From: a bacterium
GTDB taxonomy: Bacteria > Patescibacteriota > Patescibacteriia > UBA1558 > GWA2-36-10
DNA length: 64,000 nucleotides
Direction of reading: 5' to 3'
NCBI GenBank assembly: GCA_018653315.1
Contig: JABIAL010000016.1
Span: forward strand, 3,433 to 67,432
Shown piece by piece: positions 41,539 through 59,487 of this stretch. The notes under the pieces were generated by a model that was not told the origin of the DNA, searched no databases, and worked only from the letters and a program-made list of their open reading frames with translations. The stretch's first letter is position 1. Every line of letters starts with the position of its first letter. A program made the position numbers and the translations under genes.

Positions 41539-42375
41539 ATGAAGAACTTGATTTTTTGGCTTTGGATTTTGGTGCTTTCTTTTTCAATTGTGCAAGCAGC
41601 TGAAATAAATGCATCGACTTCACTTGATGTTTATGGCTTTGCCAGTTTGAACGCTGAGACGAATCAGGAATTTGATTATAATTGGCGCTGGGCTCGTATT
41701 GGTTTCAAAGCTCATCCTTACAGTGAGACGCTATCGGATGATTTCATGGTCAGATTTGAGTACGATCTCAGCGCTTCGGCTATGAAGTATGCCTATGCGC
41801 AGTTCGATCGTGATTGGCGTGGCGGCAAAGCTTCACTATTAGCTGGACAATACCTCAATCCAATACAGTACTTCTATCCTGGACCAGCTGGTCTACCTTT
41901 GACGCGTTGGCCAGATGCTGAAGGAAATTTTTCGGTTTACTGTCCGGGAGCAGCGCTGTGGTATGACTTTAGTCTTTTTAACTTCAAGGCAGCTACCTTT
42001 GGTCAGGGTCAATTTGCCACTACTATGAGCTTTGGCTCTTTGGCAATGGGCTGGGAAGAAAGCGTTGGACACACCGTTGTTTTGGCTGGTGATTATCTGG
42101 GCAAGTACCTGGAAAATCTTTTTATCGGTTGGGCACATTTTGATGATGATGACTTAGGTCACGCTTTCTTTGTGCAACATCACTGGAAAATCTGGCATCC
42201 ATCATTGCAGTTGTATGCTCAGTATGATTTCGGTGATCAATTACCAGAGGCCTGGTTGACCGGTTTGTCCTGGTCCTACAGCAAGAATTCGTTTGCCAAG
42301 CTATTTTACGATGCTAAGGCAGGCGATTTGGAAGGAGGTGAACTGAAAGCAGAGATTACCTTTGCCTTCGAATAG
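41539..42375 (+). CDS. secreted aromatic-rich hypothetical protein (beta-barrel/porin-like composition), in a GC-rich island
   Basis: Signal peptide ...SIVQA|AE, alternating aromatic/Gly-rich strands, about 45% GC versus about 30% background. Confidence 0.5.
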   Translation: MKNLIFWLWILVLSFSIVQAAEINASTSLDVYGFASLNAETNQEFDYNWRWARIGFKAHPYSETLSDDFMVRFEYDLSASAMKYAYAQFDRDWRGGKASLLAGQYLNPIQYFYPGPAGLPLTRWPDAEGNFSVYCPGAALWYDFSLFNFKAATFGQGQFATTMSFGSLAMGWEESVGHTVVLAGDYLGKYLENLFIGWAHFDDDDLGHAFFVQHHWKIWHPSLQLYAQYDFGDQLPEAWLTGLSWSYSKNSFAKLFYDAKAGDLEGGELKAEITFAFE

Positions 42376-42492: not shown

Positions 42493-42971
42493 TTAGCCAG
42501 GGAAAGAGAAGGGGAATCCACTGCCAAGGCCGATTGCGATGACTTCAACGTGGTGTCCTTTTTTACTCTCCTTGCAACCAACGAGTTGCCAGTTTTCTCG
42601 GATAGCAGTGCTGTCTAAATCAGACATTTGCTCAAAGGTCTGGTATTGAATTGAGGCCCACATAGCATCATTTAGATACCCAGTGATCAAGTCGTTCATC
42701 CGAATGGATGTCAATAGGGTGTCATGACGCTGTTTATGTTCGCTTTTTTTGTCGTCGGCAGGGGCGTCCTCATTGTGAAATTCCCGATGGGTCGTCCTCA
42801 GCTCCTCTGCTTCATGAGCATAGTGATTACGTAGGAACAACAAGCGACGTTGTTCATCATTTCTCCTAGTAACACTTCATCATCTTCAATCTTGTTAGTC
42901 ACCGGACATTGTTCCAGATCGGTCGTGGATAATTTAGCCAATTCTTCGTTGATGCGCTTTCTGAAGCTCAT
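42493..42971 (-). pseudogene. possible frameshifted gene (two overlapping ORFs 42798..42971 and 42493..42843) in a GC-rich island
   Basis: The upstream ORF has a strong RBS (AGGAGG-4-ATG) but ends after 58 aa. A second ORF continues in another frame with no ATG of its own (TTG only). His-rich segments (HYAHEAEEL..H.EFH) occur. Confidence 0.3.
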
Positions 42972-43095
42972 GCTTCCTCCTGTAATTTGTTGATTTGAGA
43001 TTATTAAATGCATGATCCTTACATGCAAAAGAACATTGATTTAGTATTTTAATACATCTATCTAGTATTGTCAATAGTAAGGGCTTGTTTAGGCT

Positions 43096-43118: not shown

Positions 43119-43264
43119 CTTTTTATTAAAAATTAATGTTTTTATCCAATATTAAATCTATTAAAATCTGGAAATATTTAACTATTATAGTTGGTTTAAA
43201 AGTGATTGTTTTAATTAAGTTGAAGTTAAATATCGAGCTCAAATAATTATATAAAAGACATCTC

Positions 43265-43293
43265 TTGACAAGGTTTGATTTTTGAGGTATAGT
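43265..43293 (+). promoter_or_regulatory. sigma70 promoter (TTGACA-17-TATAGT) upstream of the first repeat-protein gene; a second weaker TTGACA box lies at 43334
   Basis: The duplicated atctcttgaca motif at 43260 and 43329 gives tandem promoters. Confidence 0.5.
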
Positions 43294-43416
43294 TATATAT
43301 TAACATTTTGCCATGAAATCTAGTTTTTATCTCTTGACAATCATGGCATTTAGTGTAAGTTTATGCTATATTTACTCATTAAATAAATACATTAAAATAA
43401 ATTTAAAACCTTCATT

Positions 43417-45393
43417 ATGGAAGAACAAAAAAACACTCAATCAAACATGGACATAAAAACTCCAAATGATAGTGCGTCTATCAACACTAACGCAATAAAC
43501 AATGAACAACCTGAAGAAAGTTCTCCTAAGAAAAAGAAGTTTTTCTTTTGGTTTATAATTGCTTTAGGTCTTTTTGCTTTAATCCAAAGTATTTTGGTAT
43601 TTGGTAAAGATGATAATAAAGACGAAGTAGTAGTTGATGAACCACAGCAAACAATTATTGATGAATTAGTTATTGATGATGAAGAAGAAGAACCTGAAGA
43701 TCAATTAACTTATAACACTTATATTCCTCCAGCCCCTCTGGTGCCTGTAGAGGAAGAGATTGATTTAGTAGAATTAACAATAGATGATTGTATTGAAGCA
43801 GATATTGTTATGGCTGGTATTAATCCAGATGATATTAACGATGCTGTAGTAGAACAGTGTTTAATTCTTTGGGAGGACTTACAAGCTTTATTAGAAGATA
43901 TTGAAGATGAAGAAGTAGCTACTACTACACCTACCACCACACCAAGAAGAGGCGGTGGTTCAAGTGGGGGTGGATCTGTTACATTATCTGATGATGCTAG
44001 TTTAAATTTATTTAAGGTAGATGTCATAGATGCTTTAGTGCTTCCTGATTTAGAAGTAGAAAGTTTTGATGACGCAGGAGCTAAATTATTTGTAGATAAT
44101 CACCTCTGTTCAGATATCGAACTTAGTGCTAATCCTTGTGTTGATCAACTTAAACAGTTAGTAGGGATTTTCTTACAACCAACCGATGAAGATATTACTT
44201 ATATTAAAGTCGAGATTGAAAGACTTAGTCCATTGCCAGTAGAATTAGTTTGGGAAAATGAAGAGATTCTTCAATTGCATGAAAAAAATATTTTAGTTGG
44301 TGATATTATCATGGTAACAGTTATCGCTGAAGATGCTACTAGTCAAAATTTATATAAGCTAAGTATTTTAGGTGATGTTGTAAATGACGCTAGCTTAAGT
44401 CTATTTAATGTTGATTTCATTGATGTTTTACCTTTGGCAGGGTTACAGGTAAATAATTTCAGTGAAGAGGGAGCTAATCTGATTTTGTCAGATTATCAGT
44501 GTGAACGCTCAAGTTTTTCAAATGTCAGATGTATAAGTGAAAAAGATAATTTAACAGGTATTTTTATTGAGCCACGTGATCCAGACTTTAGTTATATTAA
44601 AGTAGAGATCAAAAGACTTAGTTTAATGCCGGTAGAGTTAGTTTGGGAAAACGAAGAGATTCTTCAATTACACACAGAAGATATTTTATTAGGTGATGTA
44701 ATTAGAGTGACTGTAGTTTCTGAAGATGGTAAGACTACAAGTTTATATAAAGTTAACATTAGCGATGAATCATTCATTGATACTTCTCTGAATAAATTTG
44801 CTATTGATAAATATGATATTCTGTCTCTAGAAAATTTAGAAATTAAAGATAAATCTGGCGCTGTATTATATATTAATGATGCAGAAGATTGTCCAGATTG
44901 GTCTGATCATGTTTGCACTACAACTAAATTGAAAGGTTTAATTGTCTCAGCTACTCAATCTGACGTGAGCTATATAGGCGTTTCGCTATTACGTGATAAA
45001 GTTTGGAAACTTTGGGAGAATGACGAAATTCATTTATTAGCCCAAGAGGAATTCTTTATTGATGACGTAGTCTTGGTAAGAGTTGTTTCCAAAAATGCTT
45101 GGCACGAAGCAATGTATAAAGTTACTATCAAAGCAGCTCCAACTGAAATAGAAGAAGTTGTAATCACACCAACTGAGCTCAAGCTTGTAAAAATCAAGCC
45201 TAGATTAGTTGGCGGTGGAGGATCTGCTCCAGCAAAGATAGAAAAAGAGCCAATTAATATTGAGCCAATTCAAATTACACCGGTAGAAAAGATTAAGAAA
45301 GTTCAGGAAAAACCAGTTATAGAAGTAAAAGAAGTGACTAGCATTGATCCAGTGATTGAAGTCAAGAAAACCGAACCAGCTATTATTGAATAA
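43417..45393 (+). CDS. large acidic membrane-anchored repeat protein (surface/adhesin-like), paralog A
   Basis: 658 aa. N-terminal TM anchor (FFFWFIIALGLFALIQSILVF), conserved LTIDDCIEADIVMAGINPDDINDA..QCLILWEDLQ block, Thr/Pro/Gly linker TTTPTTTPRRGGGSSGGGS, four modules of about 120 aa (...F.VD.ID.LP..GL.V..F...GA.L.......C......C...L.GIF..P.D.D.SYIKVEI.R.S..PVELVWENEEI.QLH.....GD.I.VTV.AEDG....LYK..I), and a K/E/P-rich C-terminus. Confidence 0.7.
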   Translation: MEEQKNTQSNMDIKTPNDSASINTNAINNEQPEESSPKKKKFFFWFIIALGLFALIQSILVFGKDDNKDEVVVDEPQQTIIDELVIDDEEEEPEDQLTYNTYIPPAPLVPVEEEIDLVELTIDDCIEADIVMAGINPDDINDAVVEQCLILWEDLQALLEDIEDEEVATTTPTTTPRRGGGSSGGGSVTLSDDASLNLFKVDVIDALVLPDLEVESFDDAGAKLFVDNHLCSDIELSANPCVDQLKQLVGIFLQPTDEDITYIKVEIERLSPLPVELVWENEEILQLHEKNILVGDIIMVTVIAEDATSQNLYKLSILGDVVNDASLSLFNVDFIDVLPLAGLQVNNFSEEGANLILSDYQCERSSFSNVRCISEKDNLTGIFIEPRDPDFSYIKVEIKRLSLMPVELVWENEEILQLHTEDILLGDVIRVTVVSEDGKTTSLYKVNISDESFIDTSLNKFAIDKYDILSLENLEIKDKSGAVLYINDAEDCPDWSDHVCTTTKLKGLIVSATQSDVSYIGVSLLRDKVWKLWENDEIHLLAQEEFFIDDVVLVRVVSKNAWHEAMYKVTIKAAPTEIEEVVITPTELKLVKIKPRLVGGGGSAPAKIEKEPINIEPIQITPVEKIKKVQEKPVIEVKEVTSIDPVIEVKKTEPAIIE

Positions 45394-45404
45394 ACATTTT
45401 TTAT

Positions 45405-45448
45405 AAAACCCCGCCCTGAGCATAGTCGAAGGGCGGGGTTTTTATTTT
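45405..45448 (+). terminator. intrinsic terminator whose loop carries the GTCCTGAGC..AGTCGAAGGGC repeat core
   Basis: aaaaccccgccct-gagcatagtcga-agggcggggtttt followed by tatttt. Confidence 0.7.
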
Positions 45449-45509
45449 GCTATTGTCAAGATGCTATTAAATATAGTATAATTACATCGTTAAAATTTAG
45501 ATTTTTATT

Positions 45510-48314
45510 ATGTCCAATGAACAATTTGCTGGCCAAAACGTCGGCTTTAAACAAAAGTTCACTAAGCGTCGAGTTGTAGTCACAATGTTATTTATGCTTG
45601 GTGCTTATGCAGCTATCCAAAGTGTAGTTAGTTTTGGTAAAACTGAAGACACAGTAGTTGAGCCATCTGATAAAGTGGTAAAACAAGTTGAGGTTAAGAA
45701 AGACATGCTTCATGTTGTTCCTCCAGCTCCAACAAAATTAAAAACTGACAATGAAGGTGATATTGATGTGGAATCTTACGGTTTATTTGGTTACGTGCCA
45801 AATGATAATGTTCCACTGGTCCCAGTTCCAGTAGTTGAAGTTGAAGAAGAGGAATTAGATTTAACAGACTTGACTGTTGATGACTGCATAGAAGCTGATA
45901 TTGTCATGGCTAGTATAAATCCTGAAGACATCAATGATGCTATGGTAGCGCAATGTTTGATTTTATGGGAAGATTTGCAAGATTTATTAGATGAAGTTGA
46001 TGAAGAAGTAGCTACAACAACTCCTACTACTACACCGAGAAGAGGCGGTGGTGGAGGCGGGGGTGGAACTGATAATCCTCCTGAAGAAGATCCGCTATCT
46101 ACTAATTCCGATTTAGGTATTTTCGATGTAGACAAAATAAACATTTTGCCATTTGATGGTTTGCGAGTAGCAGATTTTGATGAAGACGGCGCAACTTTGT
46201 TAGTAGACGATTATTTTTGTAAAGAAACTGAATTAACTGCTTGGCCTTGTTTTCATCCGGGTAAGCCTCTGATGGGTGTTTTTCTGGCTGCTGCTGATGA
46301 AAAGAGTAGTTATGCTAGAGTTGAGATCGAACGTAATAATCCTTTATTGTTAGAATATAGCCCAGCTAGAGTGTGGGAAAATGATGAAATCTCTAAGTTA
46401 GCAAAGGAGGAAATTTTGCCAGGCGACATCATTCGAGTGACTGCCATTGCCGAAGATGGTGTTAGTCAGAGCTTATTTAAATTAAACGTCGATGCCTTAG
46501 CCAGTGATGCTAATTTGAATATTTTTGATGTTGATTTTGTTGATGTGCTACCATTTGATGGTTTGCAAGTTAAAAAATTTGATGATCCAGGTGCCATCTT
46601 AAACATGTATAATTATCTCTGCGATCCATCTGTAGTTGGTCCAGAGCCTTGCGTGGGTGGTATTGGCGAGAGAATTACCTTGAGCGGCCTAATGCTACAA
46701 GCTAGAGATAGAAATATTAGCCATAGTAAGGTTGAAATTGAACGTAGAAGTCCATTTTCTTTTTGGGACACACCAATAAAAATCTGGGAAGGCAAAGAGA
46801 TCGACCAATTAAGAGATATGCAGATTTGGCCAGACGATATCATTAGAGTAACAATTGTTGCTGAAAATGGTCGGGCAGAAAATTTATTTAAATTGAGCGT
46901 TGTCAATCAAACAGATAATGCTGATTTAAGCCAATTTAATATTGGTACCTCTCCAGTTCTAGAGTGGCCAAATATTGAAGTGAAAGATATTAATAGTTTA
47001 GGTGCTATAGCTAATATTTGTCCAGAAAATATAAATGGTGAAGCAAGTCCTTATTTTACTTGTATTACTACTTTGGATGGAGTGTTTATCACACCAGAAG
47101 ATGAAGATGTTAGAAATATTACAGTTTCTATTTATCATGAAAATCTAATCAGTAAAGCTATATTTGTACCAGAAAAGTTTGACTTCTTTGAAGGTGAAGA
47201 AGAAATAAAACAATTAGAAAAATATCAACTTGTGCAAGACGATATGATTTTTGTGCAAGTTACAGCTGAAGATGGAGCCACAATCAAAAATTATAAAATT
47301 CAAGTTATTGAAGGTGATTATACGGAGAATGTAAGTTTGGCAGCATTTACCGTAGGTGGTATTAATGCTTTAGCCTTACCAAATGTAGAAATAGCTGGTT
47401 GGTATGACCAAGGAGCAGTAATTGAACTTTGTAATCCAACTCGTGCTACAGCTGATTGCATAGAAAGTTTAGAAGGCATTATCGTAAAAACAGAAGAAGA
47501 TACAATGTATCGCGGTGTTTATATTGAAAGAGATGGAGATGCAAATTCATTAATTTGGGTCAATGATCAAATAGATGGACTTGTAAACTTTGAAGTTTTA
47601 CCAAACGATATTATTCGTGTAGTGGTTGTAGCTAGCAATGGTAAGGCATTGGGCTTTTATAAGGTATCTGTTATATATCAAACTAGAAATGATATATTAT
47701 TATCTGAATTTACAATAGATACACATAATGCTTTGTTATTACCAGATGTAAAGATAGATAATCTTTCTGATGCTGGCGCTACATTGTTTGTACCAACAGA
47801 AGAAGTTATCCCTTGTTCATCTAATAGAGCCGAAGGTTGCACCACCATTGATCTCACTGGTATTTATGCTGCGCAGGCACTCAAAGATGTGGATATTACA
47901 GTTTATACTTTTCATGATTATTGGTCTACTTGGGTAGGTGAAGAGGGCATAGGTCAATTAGTGGATCATGAATTAGCCATTGGTGATATGGTTGCTGTGC
48001 TACTAAAGGAAGAGAATGGTTTACAGCAAACTTTATATAAAGTTACCATTGCAGAAAAGTCAGTAGAGCCTCTAGTGATCAAGAAATTCTATCCTAGCAA
48101 ATTTATTGGCGGTGGCGGATCAGTAGCACCTGTAAAGAAAAAGCCTTTAGAAGAAACAGATTTTTCTAATATTCAAGATCAGGAATTGAAAAAAGAAGAG
48201 GTTGTTAATGAGATAGAAGTGGAAAAAACTCCAGAACCACAACCTGATACTGATGATGTTAAAATAATCAAAGAGCCTATTGTTGTGAAAGAAACAGAGG
48301 AAACAGAGGAATAA
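45510..48314 (+). CDS. large acidic membrane-anchored repeat protein, paralog B
   Basis: 934 aa with the same architecture as paralog A: TM anchor, LTVDDCIEADIVMASINPEDINDA block, TTTPTTTPRRGGGGGGGGT linker, at least six modules, and an IGGGGS...KKKP C-terminal tail. Confidence 0.7.
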   Translation: MSNEQFAGQNVGFKQKFTKRRVVVTMLFMLGAYAAIQSVVSFGKTEDTVVEPSDKVVKQVEVKKDMLHVVPPAPTKLKTDNEGDIDVESYGLFGYVPNDNVPLVPVPVVEVEEEELDLTDLTVDDCIEADIVMASINPEDINDAMVAQCLILWEDLQDLLDEVDEEVATTTPTTTPRRGGGGGGGGTDNPPEEDPLSTNSDLGIFDVDKINILPFDGLRVADFDEDGATLLVDDYFCKETELTAWPCFHPGKPLMGVFLAAADEKSSYARVEIERNNPLLLEYSPARVWENDEISKLAKEEILPGDIIRVTAIAEDGVSQSLFKLNVDALASDANLNIFDVDFVDVLPFDGLQVKKFDDPGAILNMYNYLCDPSVVGPEPCVGGIGERITLSGLMLQARDRNISHSKVEIERRSPFSFWDTPIKIWEGKEIDQLRDMQIWPDDIIRVTIVAENGRAENLFKLSVVNQTDNADLSQFNIGTSPVLEWPNIEVKDINSLGAIANICPENINGEASPYFTCITTLDGVFITPEDEDVRNITVSIYHENLISKAIFVPEKFDFFEGEEEIKQLEKYQLVQDDMIFVQVTAEDGATIKNYKIQVIEGDYTENVSLAAFTVGGINALALPNVEIAGWYDQGAVIELCNPTRATADCIESLEGIIVKTEEDTMYRGVYIERDGDANSLIWVNDQIDGLVNFEVLPNDIIRVVVVASNGKALGFYKVSVIYQTRNDILLSEFTIDTHNALLLPDVKIDNLSDAGATLFVPTEEVIPCSSNRAEGCTTIDLTGIYAAQALKDVDITVYTFHDYWSTWVGEEGIGQLVDHELAIGDMVAVLLKEENGLQQTLYKVTIAEKSVEPLVIKKFYPSKFIGGGGSVAPVKKKPLEETDFSNIQDQELKKEEVVNEIEVEKTPEPQPDTDDVKIIKEPIVVKETEETEE

Positions 48315-48325
48315 ATTATATTTAG

Positions 48326-48360
48326 AGCCGGCTCCCGCAATGCGGGAGCCGGTCTTTTGT
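48326..48360 (+). terminator. strong GC hairpin terminator
   Basis: gagccggctcccgc-aat-gcgggagccggtc followed by ttttgtttg. Confidence 0.75.
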
Positions 48361-48395
48361 TTGACTCTTCGACTACGCTCAGAGTCTGCGCTAGC

Positions 48396-48630: not shown

Positions 48631-48713
48631 TCCTTCGACTCCGCTCAGGATGACAAAATTCCTTGTATTTTTCTCTGATTTTAGGTATTATTTAATAAAT
48701 TATTATAAAAATT

Positions 48714-59381: not shown

Positions 59382-59487
59382 TTCGACTGCGTTTTACTCC
59401 ATAAAACTCCGCTCATGGCCGTTGGCCACTTACTATAACATTTTATATATATCAAAGTCGAATGTCCTGAGCGTAGCCGAAGGGCGT
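59382..59487 (+). repeat. tRNA 3'-trailer element: ttcgactgcg...ctccgctcatgg ... agtcgaatgtcctgagcgtagccgaagggcg
   Basis: Same motif pair as after tRNA-Glu, tRNA-Tyr, tRNA-Asn and tRNA-Lys. Confidence 0.6.

What the first reader, a model, noticed from the sequence alone, without database searches (positions are those of the whole stretch)
43417..48314. Tandem paralogous large acidic membrane-anchored proteins built from a novel repeated module of about 120 aa with two Cys, Thr/Pro/Gly hinges and Gly4 motifs
Two adjacent genes of 658 aa and 934 aa share a common architecture:
- an N-terminal signal-anchor;
- a highly conserved acidic block (LT[IV]DDCIEADIVMA.INP[DE]DINDA.V.QCLILWEDLQ);
- an identical TTTPTTTPRRGGG linker followed by a poly-Gly/Ser run;
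- four and at least six copies, respectively, of a module with consensus ...F.VD.ID.LP..GL.V..F...GA.L.....C......C....L.GIF..P.D.D.SYIKVEI.R.S....VWENEEI..L......GD.I.VTV.AEDG....LYK..I;
- tails containing [IV]GGGGS and K/E/P-rich low complexity.
I do not recognise the module as any named domain; the paired Cys and beta-rich pattern suggest an Ig- or cadherin-like extracellular fold. The genes are driven by duplicated TTGACA promoters and closed by strong terminators that embed the tRNA-trailer repeat core. Tandem, size-variable repeat proteins of this kind are typical of adhesins or host-interaction proteins and are likely lineage-specific. This is the best candidate for an undescribed surface system in the window.
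Basis: seen in the sequence. Interest (0 to 1): 0.7.

Follow-up and report, generated by a model that had tools for sequence, protein, structure and literature searches.

The report
Paired membrane-anchored Ig-like surface proteins
Two neighbouring genes of an uncultured, tiny-genome bacterium (Patescibacteria) encode very acidic, membrane-anchored surface proteins built from 3 and 5 copies of a disulfide-stapled beta-sandwich module; the module is a far-diverged relative of a known "cadherin-like" domain and not a new fold, so this is a lineage-specific surface protein family of unknown role and not a new kind of system.

Summary
The two ORFs are real: 43417-45393 (658 aa) and 45510-48314 (934 aa).
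- one N-terminal transmembrane (TM) helix;
- a conserved acidic two-Cys block;
- an identical TTTPTTTPRRGGG linker;
- repeated modules of about 120 aa, each with two Cys;
- GGGGS motifs followed by K/E/P-rich tails.

The copy numbers are 3 and 5, not 4 and at least 6.

The module is not a new fold. AlphaFold2 predicts a confident beta-sandwich (pLDDT 93). A profile search of 1.84 billion proteins links it to Pfam PF12733 (Cadherin-like beta sandwich) through an intermediate domain subfamily of about 95 aa (hhalign 99.7% and 97.6%). It scores below Pfam's cut-off and carries two lineage-specific insertions, one of which is the Cys loop.

The family is tiny, about 9 clusters at 50% identity among 15 billion proteins. 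It is found only in close relatives of a "Ca. Nomurabacteria" MAG, always just upstream of AsnRS/AspRS.

The genes are under purifying selection (dN/dS about 0.22) but diverge much faster than their neighbours (25-44% against 58-86% identity).

The best reading is a type-II-anchored extracellular stalk or coat protein pair. Whether the role is adhesion or envelope structure is unknown. Interest is moderate.

The parts
43260..43293 (+). Promoter-like site upstream of gene A (TTGACA-17-TATAGT, 11/12). It lies within the first copy of the duplicated ATCTCTTGACAA.
   Evidence: consensus match only
43329..43372 (+). Second copy of ATCTCTTGACAA, with a weaker -10-like element
43417..45393 (+). Gene A: 658-aa acidic membrane-anchored protein with 3 modules. 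One cluster member (P0014, 658 aa) is NCBI MBT4349547.1, a 'hypothetical protein'.
   Evidence: dN/dS 0.23 against the L001 orthologue
43540..43602 (+). Gene A transmembrane helix (aa 42-62, FFFWFIIALGLFALIQSILVF), preceded by KKKK. The Q-S pair and an F are invariant across the family.
43765..43914 (+). Gene A conserved acidic two-Cys block (aa 117-166; Cys125 and Cys148). It is predicted to form a helical hairpin.
43915..43977 (+). Gene A Thr/Pro linker plus Gly/Ser run (VATTTPTTTPRRGGGSSGGGS)
   Evidence: (D3)
43996..44367 (+). Gene A module 1 (aa 194-317)
44389..44760 (+). Gene A module 2 (aa 325-448). This is the module that was modelled (pLDDT 93).
44782..45129 (+). Gene A module 3 (aa 456-571), a distinct terminal module type
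45130..45390 (+). Gene A C-terminal tail, containing KPRLVGGGGSAPAK (45205-45237) and a K/E/P/V/I-rich low-complexity stretch
45405..45448 (+). Terminator hairpin after gene A (13-bp stem, dG -24.4, then a U run). Its loop carries the reverse complement of CTTCGACTATGCTCAG.
45453..45482 (+). Promoter-like site for gene B (TTGTCA-18-TATAAT, 11/12)
   Evidence: consensus match only
45510..48314 (+). Gene B: 934-aa acidic membrane-anchored protein with 5 modules
   Evidence: dN/dS 0.21 against the L001 orthologue
45573..45635 (+). Gene B transmembrane helix (aa 22-42, VVVTMLFMLGAYAAIQSVVSF), preceded by KRR
45861..46007 (+). Gene B conserved acidic two-Cys block (aa 118-166; Cys126 and Cys149)
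46008..46067 (+). Gene B Thr/Pro linker plus Gly8 run
46107..46490 (+). Gene B module 1 (aa 200-327)
46509..46901 (+). Gene B module 2 (aa 334-464)
46920..47306 (+). Gene B module 3 (aa 471-599)
47331..47672 (+). Gene B module 4 (aa 608-721)
47694..48050 (+). Gene B module 5 (aa 729-847)
48051..48311 (+). Gene B C-terminal tail, containing PSKFIGGGGSVAPVK (48102-48137) and a K/E/P-rich low-complexity stretch
48324..48362 (+). Terminator hairpin after gene B (dG -27.5, then a U-rich run). The motif CTTCGACTACGCTCAG follows at 48367.

Best explanation
The two genes encode a conserved pair of paralogous, type-II (N-in, C-out) membrane-anchored cell-surface proteins of a small-genome Patescibacterium related to 'Ca. 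Nomurabacteria' HK-STAS-PATE-4.

Each protein is built from the following parts, in order:
- a short cytoplasmic N-terminus;
- one conserved TM helix;
- an acidic spacer;
- a conserved acidic helical hairpin carrying one Cys per helix, probably disulfide-stapled;
- a Thr/Pro stretch and a poly-Gly hinge;
- a string of 3 (gene A) or 5 (gene B) Ig-like beta-sandwich modules;
- a second Gly4-Ser hinge;
- a disordered K/E/P-rich tail at the distal end.

The modules are remote relatives of the PF12733 'Cadherin-like beta sandwich' domain. They have acquired two insertions, one of which is a short loop closed by two Cys.

Shown:
- the gene models;
- the repeat structure;
- remote homology to PF12733;
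- a confident predicted fold;
- conservation of the pair;
- purifying selection with fast divergence.

Inferred:
- The topology, from the positive-inside rule and from a TM segment that is long and conserved.
- The disulfides, from strict Cys pairing.
- That the proteins form a negatively charged, beads-on-a-string stalk projecting roughly 10-20 nm from the membrane. It would serve either as a contact or adhesion structure towards a host or partner cell, or as part of the cell coat.
- That the two paralogues may associate through the conserved TM helix and helical hairpin.
For: Genes are real and under constraint:
- Intact ORFs.
- dN/dS is 0.23 and 0.21 against orthologues in L001. Neighbouring genes give 0.05-0.12.

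Conserved unit:
- A short plus long pair lies in the same place, directly upstream of AsnRS/AspRS, in the window, in L001/L008, in a JGI 168-kb contig, in L007 and in L012/L013.

Topology:
- There is a single hydrophobic stretch of 21 aa after a K/R cluster, and none at the C-terminus.
- The TM residues A, Q, S and F are invariant across 8 homologues. That fits an anchor and is unusual for a cleaved signal peptide.

Module:
- 3 and 5 copies, each with phmmer/HMM E-values from 1e-7 down to 1e-55.
- The AlphaFold2 model has pLDDT 93 and pTM 0.86 and is a beta-sandwich.

Link to PF12733:
- Sub-threshold Pfam hits in 7 of the 9 family proteins scanned.
- The module profile finds 103 proteins at E <= 1e-3 in 1.84 billion.
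- Those hits include proteins with 5-11 genuine PF12733 repeats, for example P0027 with Pfam E 4e-143.
- hhalign, module against classical PF12733: 72.5% probability, E 3e-5, over the last 27 columns.
- hhalign, module against the bridge subfamily: 99.7%, E 4e-27, over 100 columns.
- hhalign, bridge subfamily against PF12733: 97.6%, E 4e-12, over 56 columns.
- Several bridge domains pass the PF12733 cut-off (P0036, P0052 and P0054).
- The only PDB chain with a PF12733-like domain, 8yk1_A, is the highest-probability Foldseek hit of the model, although the match is weak.

Disulfides:
- All 44 modules examined have either 2 Cys or none.
- The N-block has C-x22-C, with one Cys on each predicted helix.

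Surface-protein behaviour:
- Identity to the L007 orthologues is 44% and 25%. The ten flanking genes give 58-86%.
- Module number varies from 2 to 5, and module types are shuffled between paralogues.
- Bridge-subfamily domains sit in secreted multi-domain enzymes that carry T9SS or dockerin signals.
Against: - There is no experimental or expression evidence.
- Localisation rests on a hydropathy profile and the positive-inside rule only. No dedicated predictor was available.
- Gene B has an AYA-A motif inside its TM segment that could be a signal-peptidase site.
- The module fails the Pfam gathering score (best 19.6 bits against 24.2).
- Direct profile-profile homology to PF12733 covers only the last beta-hairpin.
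- The N-block model is only moderately confident (mean pLDDT 69; 80-88 in the helices).
- No partner genes such as a glycosyltransferase, a sortase or a disulfide oxidoreductase were found nearby.
- One relative (L010/L011) manages with a single chimeric gene, so a heterodimer is not obligatory.
- A role in adhesion rather than in the coat is not tested.
Confidence: 0.6

Rival explanations
1. S-layer-like coat or envelope-spacer proteins. The pair would form, or would anchor, a regular acidic protein coat. This resembles membrane-anchored archaeal S-layer glycoproteins, which are Ig-like domains on a Thr-rich, O-glycosylated, membrane-proximal stalk. It also resembles two-component S-layers. 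Under this reading the pair does not bind a host.
For: - The proteins have pI 4.2 and are the most acidic large ORFs in the window.
- They are beads-on-a-string beta-sandwich arrays with a Thr/Pro stretch near the membrane anchor.
- Each gene has a strong consensus promoter-like site and a strong terminator of its own. There is also a long AT-rich leader with a duplicated promoter-like element, which fits high expression.
- The locus sits in a conserved core-genome position.
- S-layers are reported as predicted in Patescibacteria (bioRxiv 10.1101/2024.05.28.596244).
- The comparison with Haloferax and Sulfolobus S-layer proteins comes from my own knowledge and from titles retrieved.
Against: - A lattice-forming protein is not expected to change from 2 to 5 modules between close relatives.
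- Nor is it expected to fall to 25% identity where neighbours keep 58-86%.
- No SLH or other known S-layer or cell-wall-binding domain was detected.
- The family is far too narrowly distributed to be the general coat of the group.
Confidence: 0.25
2. Glycan- or polymer-binding capture proteins. The modules would act as carbohydrate- or substrate-binding accessory domains that hold external polymers at the cell surface for uptake.
For: The nearest full-length relatives of the module (the bridge subfamily) are accessory domains in secreted proteins. These include a subtilase, an endonuclease I, and proteins with CBM_4_9, CHB_HEX_C or LTD domains. The only solved PF12733-like domain lies in a Bifidobacterium alpha-galactosidase.
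Against: - No catalytic or transporter partner is fused or adjacent.
- An extreme negative charge and the absence of conserved aromatic platforms in the consensus are not typical of CBMs. This is an inference.
- In those enzymes the domain may be a mere spacer.
Confidence: 0.1
3. Secreted proteins, not anchored ones. The N-terminal hydrophobic segment would be a cleaved Sec signal peptide, and the acidic arrays would be released into the medium or onto the wall.
For: Gene B and its orthologues have G-A-Y-A|A-I-Q in the hydrophobic segment, which resembles an AxA signal-peptidase site.
Against: - The hydrophobic stretch is 21 aa long and continues past the AxA.
- The region ahead of it is 20-41 aa long.
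- The segment is among the better conserved parts of the protein (dN/dS 0.12-0.13; invariant Q, S and F).
- Gene A has no AxA.
Confidence: 0.1

Closest known systems
Pfam PF12733, 'Cadherin-like beta sandwich domain', as found in repeat proteins
   Same: - Tandem arrays of beta-sandwich modules in extracellular proteins.
- A shared C-terminal hairpin motif: G-D/N-x-I-x-V-x-V-x-A-E-D-G-x-x-x-x-Y-K/T-V-x-V.
- The module profile retrieves proteins with 5-11 PF12733 repeats.
- hhalign gives E 3e-5 directly and 97.6-99.7% through a bridging subfamily.
   Different: - Scores are below the Pfam gathering cut-off (at most 19.6 bits against 24.2 in the window proteins).
- The modules are 114-131 aa, against about 89 aa for PF12733. 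The difference comes from two insertions: a disulfide-closed loop of about 16 aa, and about 10 aa before the WENEEI helix.
- The N-terminal two thirds are not alignable directly to classical PF12733.
Unnamed 'bridge' domain subfamily of about 95 aa (for example P0021 518-613, P0031 757-853, P0047 490-585). It occurs in secreted subtilases, nucleases and T9SS or dockerin proteins.
   Same: Full-length homology to the window module (hhalign 99.7%, 100 columns, 41% consensus identity). The shared motifs are dAtLs.FtiGG.dvL.L, GA.L.v and DVIvVtVvAEDg.t..YKVT.
   Different: - The bridge domains lack both insertions and both Cys.
- They occur as 1-4 copies (matched stretches) inside large enzymes.
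- They are not found as the sole content of an N-terminally anchored protein.
Membrane-anchored archaeal S-layer glycoproteins (for example the Haloferax volcanii S-layer glycoprotein), and two-component S-layers (Sulfolobus SlaA/SlaB)
   Same: Very acidic; strings of Ig-like domains; a Thr-rich stretch next to a single membrane anchor; two adjacent genes in the Sulfolobus case. This rests on my own knowledge and on PMC10903991 and PMC6607943, which were seen as titles only.
   Different: - The anchor is N-terminal here, not C-terminal.
- No sequence homology was detected.
- Module number is variable.
- Lattice formation has not been tested.
Rod-like repeat adhesins of Gram-positive bacteria (SasG/Aap G5-E repeats, Cpe0147-type Ig repeats)
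   Different: - There is no LPXTG signal and no C-terminal TM segment. The anchor is an N-terminal TM helix.
- There are no intramolecular ester or isopeptide signatures. Stabilisation would be by Cys pairs instead. This is an inference.

Membership tests
Pfam PF12733 Cadherin-like beta sandwich | Whole-protein score at or above Pfam's gathering cut-off (24.2 bits) | tested here: not met
   The scores are 19.6 bits (gene A) and 17.7 bits (gene B). Single modules give E >= 0.042. Relatives reach at most 22.3 bits.
Pfam PF12733 Cadherin-like beta sandwich | Profile-level homology to genuine PF12733 domains | tested here: inconclusive
   - Direct hhalign gives 72.5% probability, E 3.3e-5, over only the last 27 columns.
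- Through the bridging subfamily the values are 99.7% (100 columns) and 97.6% (56 columns).
- The profile search retrieves PF12733 repeat proteins at E 1e-13 to 1e-4.
- Superfamily-level homology is supported. Family membership in the strict Pfam sense is not.
Pfam PF12733 Cadherin-like beta sandwich | Beta-sandwich fold | tested here: met
   - The AlphaFold2 model has pLDDT 93 and pTM 0.86 and is built mainly of strands.
- The one PDB chain with a PF12733-like domain (8yk1_A) is the highest-probability Foldseek hit, but the match is weak (E 0.38, TM 0.39).
- This is a prediction, not an experiment.
Classical cadherin repeat (PF00028) or Big_2 and other named bacterial Ig-like families | A match to the family HMM | tested here: not met
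   There is no hit to PF00028, Big_2 or any other Ig-like Pfam family at E <= 1 in either protein or in any module. NCBIfam gives nothing meaningful.
Sortase-anchored LPXTG surface proteins | A C-terminal LPXTG motif followed by a hydrophobic segment and a basic tail | tested here: not met
   The only hydrophobic window is N-terminal. There is no LPXTG, and the C-termini are acidic and K/E/P-rich.
Bacterial S-layer proteins with SLH or other wall-binding domains | An SLH, CWB2 or similar anchoring domain | tested here: not met
   No such Pfam or NCBIfam hit was found. Lattice formation itself cannot be tested with these tools.
Type II (signal-anchor) single-pass membrane proteins | A single uncleaved N-terminal TM helix with the positive charges on the cytoplasmic side | tested here: inconclusive
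   - One hydrophobic segment of 21 aa follows KKKK or KRR, and the residues in it are conserved.
- No dedicated TM or signal-peptide predictor was available, and there is no experiment.

The most novel reading that the evidence does not exclude
The pair is a clade-specific, two-subunit surface fibril of an episymbiotic Patescibacterium.
- The paralogues heterodimerise through their conserved polar-containing TM helices and their disulfide-stapled acidic helical hairpins.
- The fast-evolving, disulfide-looped modules and the distal K/E/P tail make specific contact with the host cell.
- The near-identical Gly-run motifs that bracket the array are sites of processing or cross-linking. These motifs are P-R-R-GGG... 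before the array and ...GGGGS-x-AP-x-K after it. In P0008 both read GGGGSVAPV.
- The insertions would make this a new, host-specificity-determining elaboration of the PF12733 scaffold.
Probability: 0.15. Interest if true: 0.6.

Novelty: new variant of a known kind. Interest (0 to 1): 0.4.

Why it matters
How ultra-small Patescibacteria build their envelope and recognise their hosts is poorly understood. Type IV pili are so far the main attachment structures with experimental support (papers listed).

This pair has several properties that make it a reasonable candidate for a specificity or coat component in one small clade:
- it is conserved in position but evolves quickly;
- it is membrane-anchored;
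- it is built of Ig-like repeats.

The module alignment also exposes a sizeable PF12733-related domain subfamily, the 'bridge' domains. Pfam currently misses it, or scores it below threshold, in 7 of the 10 carrier proteins scanned. That is useful for annotation.

Otherwise this is an ordinary class of protein, a repeat-containing surface protein, with no evidence of a new mechanism.

Tried and rejected
- The PDB sequence-profile search with the module found only chance hits to de novo TIM barrels, E 0.26.
- Foldseek against PDB found nothing better than E 0.25.
- The AFDB50 library was not available. A structural match to predicted PF12733 domains could therefore not be tested.
- The search for homologous proteins with the N-block alignment A5 returned nothing, not even the family itself. 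The word index was probably swamped by acidic, Thr/Pro and Gly low complexity. The result is uninformative, not negative.
- Pattern scans based on the N-block found only 3 loci (2 MAGs) among 185,579 species genomes and 2 loci in JGI metagenomes.
- Weak Pfam hits to NEDD4_Bsd2, CsrA, RuvB_N, W_rich_C and T2SSG were all far below their cut-offs. I rejected them as chance.
- Recent gene conversion between the paralogues is rejected. The DNA repeats between them are only 65-79% identical, even in the identical peptide linker.
- A recent fusion origin of the single gene P0004 is rejected. Its C-terminal modules are only about 39% identical to those of P0002. Its module types are nevertheless of the gene-B kind, so any fusion is old.
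- The literature search for PF12733 found no functional study.
Full report
**1. Observation**

BLASTP of A against B gives 39% identity over about 590 residues, E 3e-117.

I seeded an HMM with one module and iterated it. It converged on:
- 3 copies in A (aa 194-317, 325-448, 456-571);
- 5 copies in B (aa 200-327, 334-464, 471-599, 608-721, 729-847).

The first single-sequence (phmmer) pass already found all eight copies, with E-values from 2e-7 to 4e-82. The iterated HMM then gave domain E-values between 1e-39 and 1e-55. A six-frame scan of the whole 64-kb window finds no other copy of the module or of the N-terminal block. The module itself is real.

Every module has exactly two Cys, 7-13 residues apart. 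The N-terminal block has C-x22-C.

Each protein has a single hydrophobic 21-residue segment. It sits at aa 42-62 in A and aa 22-42 in B and is preceded by KKKK or KRR. Net charges are -78 and -98. These are the two most acidic of the 47 large ORFs in the window.

The conserved block, the identical VATTTPTTTPRRGGG peptide and the [VI]GGGGS motifs are all present. The Thr/Pro stretch is not an inter-module hinge. It occurs once, before the array, and the linkers between modules are 6-8 residues long.

**2. Signals around the genes**

- A distal TTGACA-17-TATAGT (11/12) lies upstream of A, and TTGTCA-18-TATAAT (11/12) lies upstream of B.
- ATCTCTTGACAA is duplicated at 43260 and 43329.
- Both genes end in strong hairpins followed by U runs: dG -24.4 and -27.5 kcal/mol, z -5.1 and -6.0.
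- The motif CTTCGACTNCGCTCAG occurs 4 times in the window against 0.02 expected. One copy is inside the A terminator, one is 14 nt after the B terminator, one directly follows tRNA-Asn and one lies about 85 nt downstream of tRNA-Thr(ggt).

These are consensus matches and folds, not evidence of function. They fit two separately transcribed genes.

**3. What the module is**

Pfam gives only sub-threshold hits to PF12733 (Cadherin-like beta sandwich). They fall on the last hairpin, G-D-x-I-x-V-T-V-x-A-E-D-G-...-Y-K-V. The scores are 19.6 and 17.7 bits against a cut-off of 24.2. Six of seven relatives scanned behave the same way. NCBIfam and a PDB sequence-profile search give nothing.

An AlphaFold2 model of A module 2 was built from an alignment of 27 modules. 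It is confident (pLDDT 93, pTM 0.86) and shows a beta-sandwich with short helices.
- Foldseek against PDB has no hit better than E 0.25.

The module profile was then searched against 1.84 billion representative proteins. It returned 103 hits at E <= 1e-3. Beyond the family itself there are two classes.

(a) Proteins with many short matches to profile positions of about 93-118. Pfam shows these to be genuine PF12733 repeat proteins with 5-11 repeats, E 1e-68 to 1e-175.

(b) Proteins matched over the whole profile by a stretch of about 95 aa. These are a subtilase, an endonuclease I with a dockerin, and T9SS cargo proteins with CBM, LTD or CHB_HEX domains. In them PF12733 scores just above the cut-off, just below it, or not at all.

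Profile-profile comparison puts numbers on the chain:
- module against classical PF12733: 72.5% probability, E 3e-5, over 27 columns;
- module against the class (b) 'bridge' alignment: 99.7%, E 4e-27, over 100 columns;
- bridge against classical PF12733: 97.6%, E 4e-12, over 56 columns.

The module-bridge alignment shows that the window modules differ from bridge domains by two insertions. One is about 16 residues and contains both Cys. The other is about 10 residues and lies before the WENEEI helix.

More distant family members have Cys-free modules of bridge-like length. These are P0018, the second gene of L007, as well as P0022 and the first module of P0008. Across 44 modules the Cys count is always 2 or 0. 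That is the pattern expected of a disulfide pair acquired together with the insertion.

The only PDB chain with a PF12733-like domain is 8yk1_A. It is also the highest-probability Foldseek hit of the model, although the match is weak (prob 0.75, E 0.38).

Conclusion: the module is a far-diverged, elaborated relative of PF12733. It is not an unknown fold, and it is not a member by Pfam's own criterion.

**4. The N-terminal block**

The block is the best-conserved ectodomain segment, with 66% mean column identity across 8 homologues. AlphaFold2 predicts two helices with pLDDT about 80-88 and one Cys on each. This is a helical hairpin that a disulfide could staple.

No homologue was found outside the family. 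Pattern scans based on the block found only 2 MAGs among 185,579 species genomes and 2 loci in JGI metagenomes. The word-indexed protein search with the block failed outright and is uninformative.

**5. Distribution, context and evolution**

The whole family amounts to 8 clusters at 90% identity in 5.8 billion proteins. It amounts to about 9 representatives at 50% identity in the 15-billion-protein collection. All are labelled 'hypothetical'. One member of gene A's cluster, P0014, is NCBI MBT4349547.1.

The named relative is 'Candidatus Nomurabacteria bacterium HK-STAS-PATE-4', on an 842-kb contig. Its AsnRS is 86% identical to that of the window. The window therefore comes from a Patescibacterium of that neighbourhood. 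A second MAG carrying the pair is labelled 'Gammaproteobacteria', which is probably a mislabel.

The short plus long pair sits directly upstream of AsnRS/AspRS in every pair-bearing genome:
- the window, 658 + 934 aa;
- L001/L008, 664 + 807 aa;
- a 168-kb JGI contig, 588 + 926 aa;
- L007, 559 + 746 aa;
- L012/L013, 669 + at least 773 aa.

In L010/L011 a single 696-aa gene lies between a transposase and AsnRS. It has a gene-A-type N-terminus and first module, followed by gene-B-type fourth and fifth modules. Its C-terminal half is only about 39% identical to known B proteins, so any fusion is old.

The surrounding genes are housekeeping: ArgRS, a P-type ATPase, an SDR, AsnRS, AspRS, ScpA/B, RluB, a D-Ala-D-Ala carboxypeptidase and TIM. 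No dedicated partner is evident.

Against L007, A and B keep 44% and 25% identity, while ten neighbours keep 58-86%. Against L001, dN/dS is 0.23 and 0.21, while four neighbours give 0.05-0.12. The genes are functional but evolve fast.

DNA repeats between the paralogues are only 65-79% identical, so there has been no recent gene conversion.

**6. Mechanism**

Shown:
- two intact, selected genes;
- a repeat architecture;
- a confident beta-sandwich prediction;
- remote PF12733 homology;
- strict Cys pairing;
- a conserved gene pair;
- fast divergence with module gain, loss and shuffling.

Inferred:
- N-in, C-out anchoring through an uncleaved TM helix. The grounds are the positive-inside rule, the 21-aa length, invariant Q, S and F in the helix, and dN/dS of about 0.12 there.
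- Extracellular disulfides.
- A flexible, negatively charged stalk in which the poly-Gly hinges bracket a rigid string of 3 or 5 sandwiches that ends in a disordered K/E/P tail.

The conserved polar TM residues and the helical hairpin are the most plausible sites for self-association or for A-B association.

For function I rank the options as follows. A contact or adhesion structure comes first, on the grounds of fast evolution, variable length, lineage specificity and the episymbiotic lifestyle typical of the phylum. An S-layer-like coat or spacer comes second. Polymer capture and release as a secreted protein follow. None of these can be separated with sequence data alone.

**7. Comparison and novelty**

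The thing works like other beads-on-a-string bacterial surface proteins, and its module belongs to the PF12733 superfamily. Three features are particular to it:
- the two insertions, including the Cys loop;
- the N-terminal anchor plus disulfide hairpin plus Thr/Pro/Gly stalk;
- its existence as a conserved paralogous pair in one small Patescibacterial clade.

That makes it a new variant of a known kind.

The superfamily is known and widespread. This subfamily and this architecture are rare.

Interest is moderate (0.4). It is a reasonable candidate for envelope or host-contact biology in an uncultured lineage, and it is a useful annotation bridge. Nothing here points to a new mechanism.

Noticed in passing
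window 45416-45431(-), 48367-48382(+), 48633-48648(+), 59467-59482(-): The 16-nt motif CTTCGACTNCGCTCAG occurs 4 times against 0.02 expected. Its positions are inside the gene A terminator hairpin, 14 nt after the gene B terminator, directly after tRNA-Asn, and about 85 nt after tRNA-Thr(ggt). It looks like a small dispersed intergenic repeat tied to 3' ends.
   Followed up: partly
window about 42493-43013, minus strand: The gene upstream of gene A is split over two reading frames, with the switch near 42860-42880. The orthologue in L001 (7130-7648, -) is an intact 172-aa protein. This is either a pseudogene or an assembly frameshift. It has no Pfam family and is not present in L007.
   Followed up: partly
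L010 1862-3952 and L011 6001-8091: One relative has a single chimeric gene (P0004, 696 aa) instead of the pair. An rve-family transposase lies immediately upstream. The locus has been remodelled, and one gene is evidently sufficient there.
   Followed up: partly
L005 and L006 (MAG CAZXZY01): A MAG titled 'uncultured Gammaproteobacteria bacterium' carries the same gene pair as the Ca. Nomurabacteria genome. Its taxonomic label is probably wrong.
   Followed up: no
window 41539-42375 (+): A 278-aa protein with a clear N-terminal signal-peptide-like sequence has no Pfam hit. It is conserved next to the pair in L001 and L012 but is absent from L007.
   Followed up: no
window 45130-45390 (gene A tail): Synonymous divergence from the L001 orthologue is about three times lower in the gene A tail (dS 0.17) than in the modules (0.46-0.59). 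This hints at recent recombination or at a nucleotide-level constraint.
   Followed up: no
P0008 aa about 185-200, and the C-terminal hinges of all family members: The Gly-run hinges on both sides of the module array share a motif, P-x-[RK]...GGGG-S-[VA]-A-P-[VA]. In P0008 the N-terminal hinge reads GGGGGGSVAPV, almost the same as the C-terminal hinge of gene B (GGGGSVAPV). The meaning is unknown.
   Followed up: no
proteins P0021, P0023-P0025, P0028, P0031, P0033, P0047 and others: A widespread extracellular domain subfamily of about 95 aa, related to PF12733, is missed or scored below threshold by Pfam in 7 of the 10 carrier proteins scanned. It could merit its own family model.
   Followed up: partly
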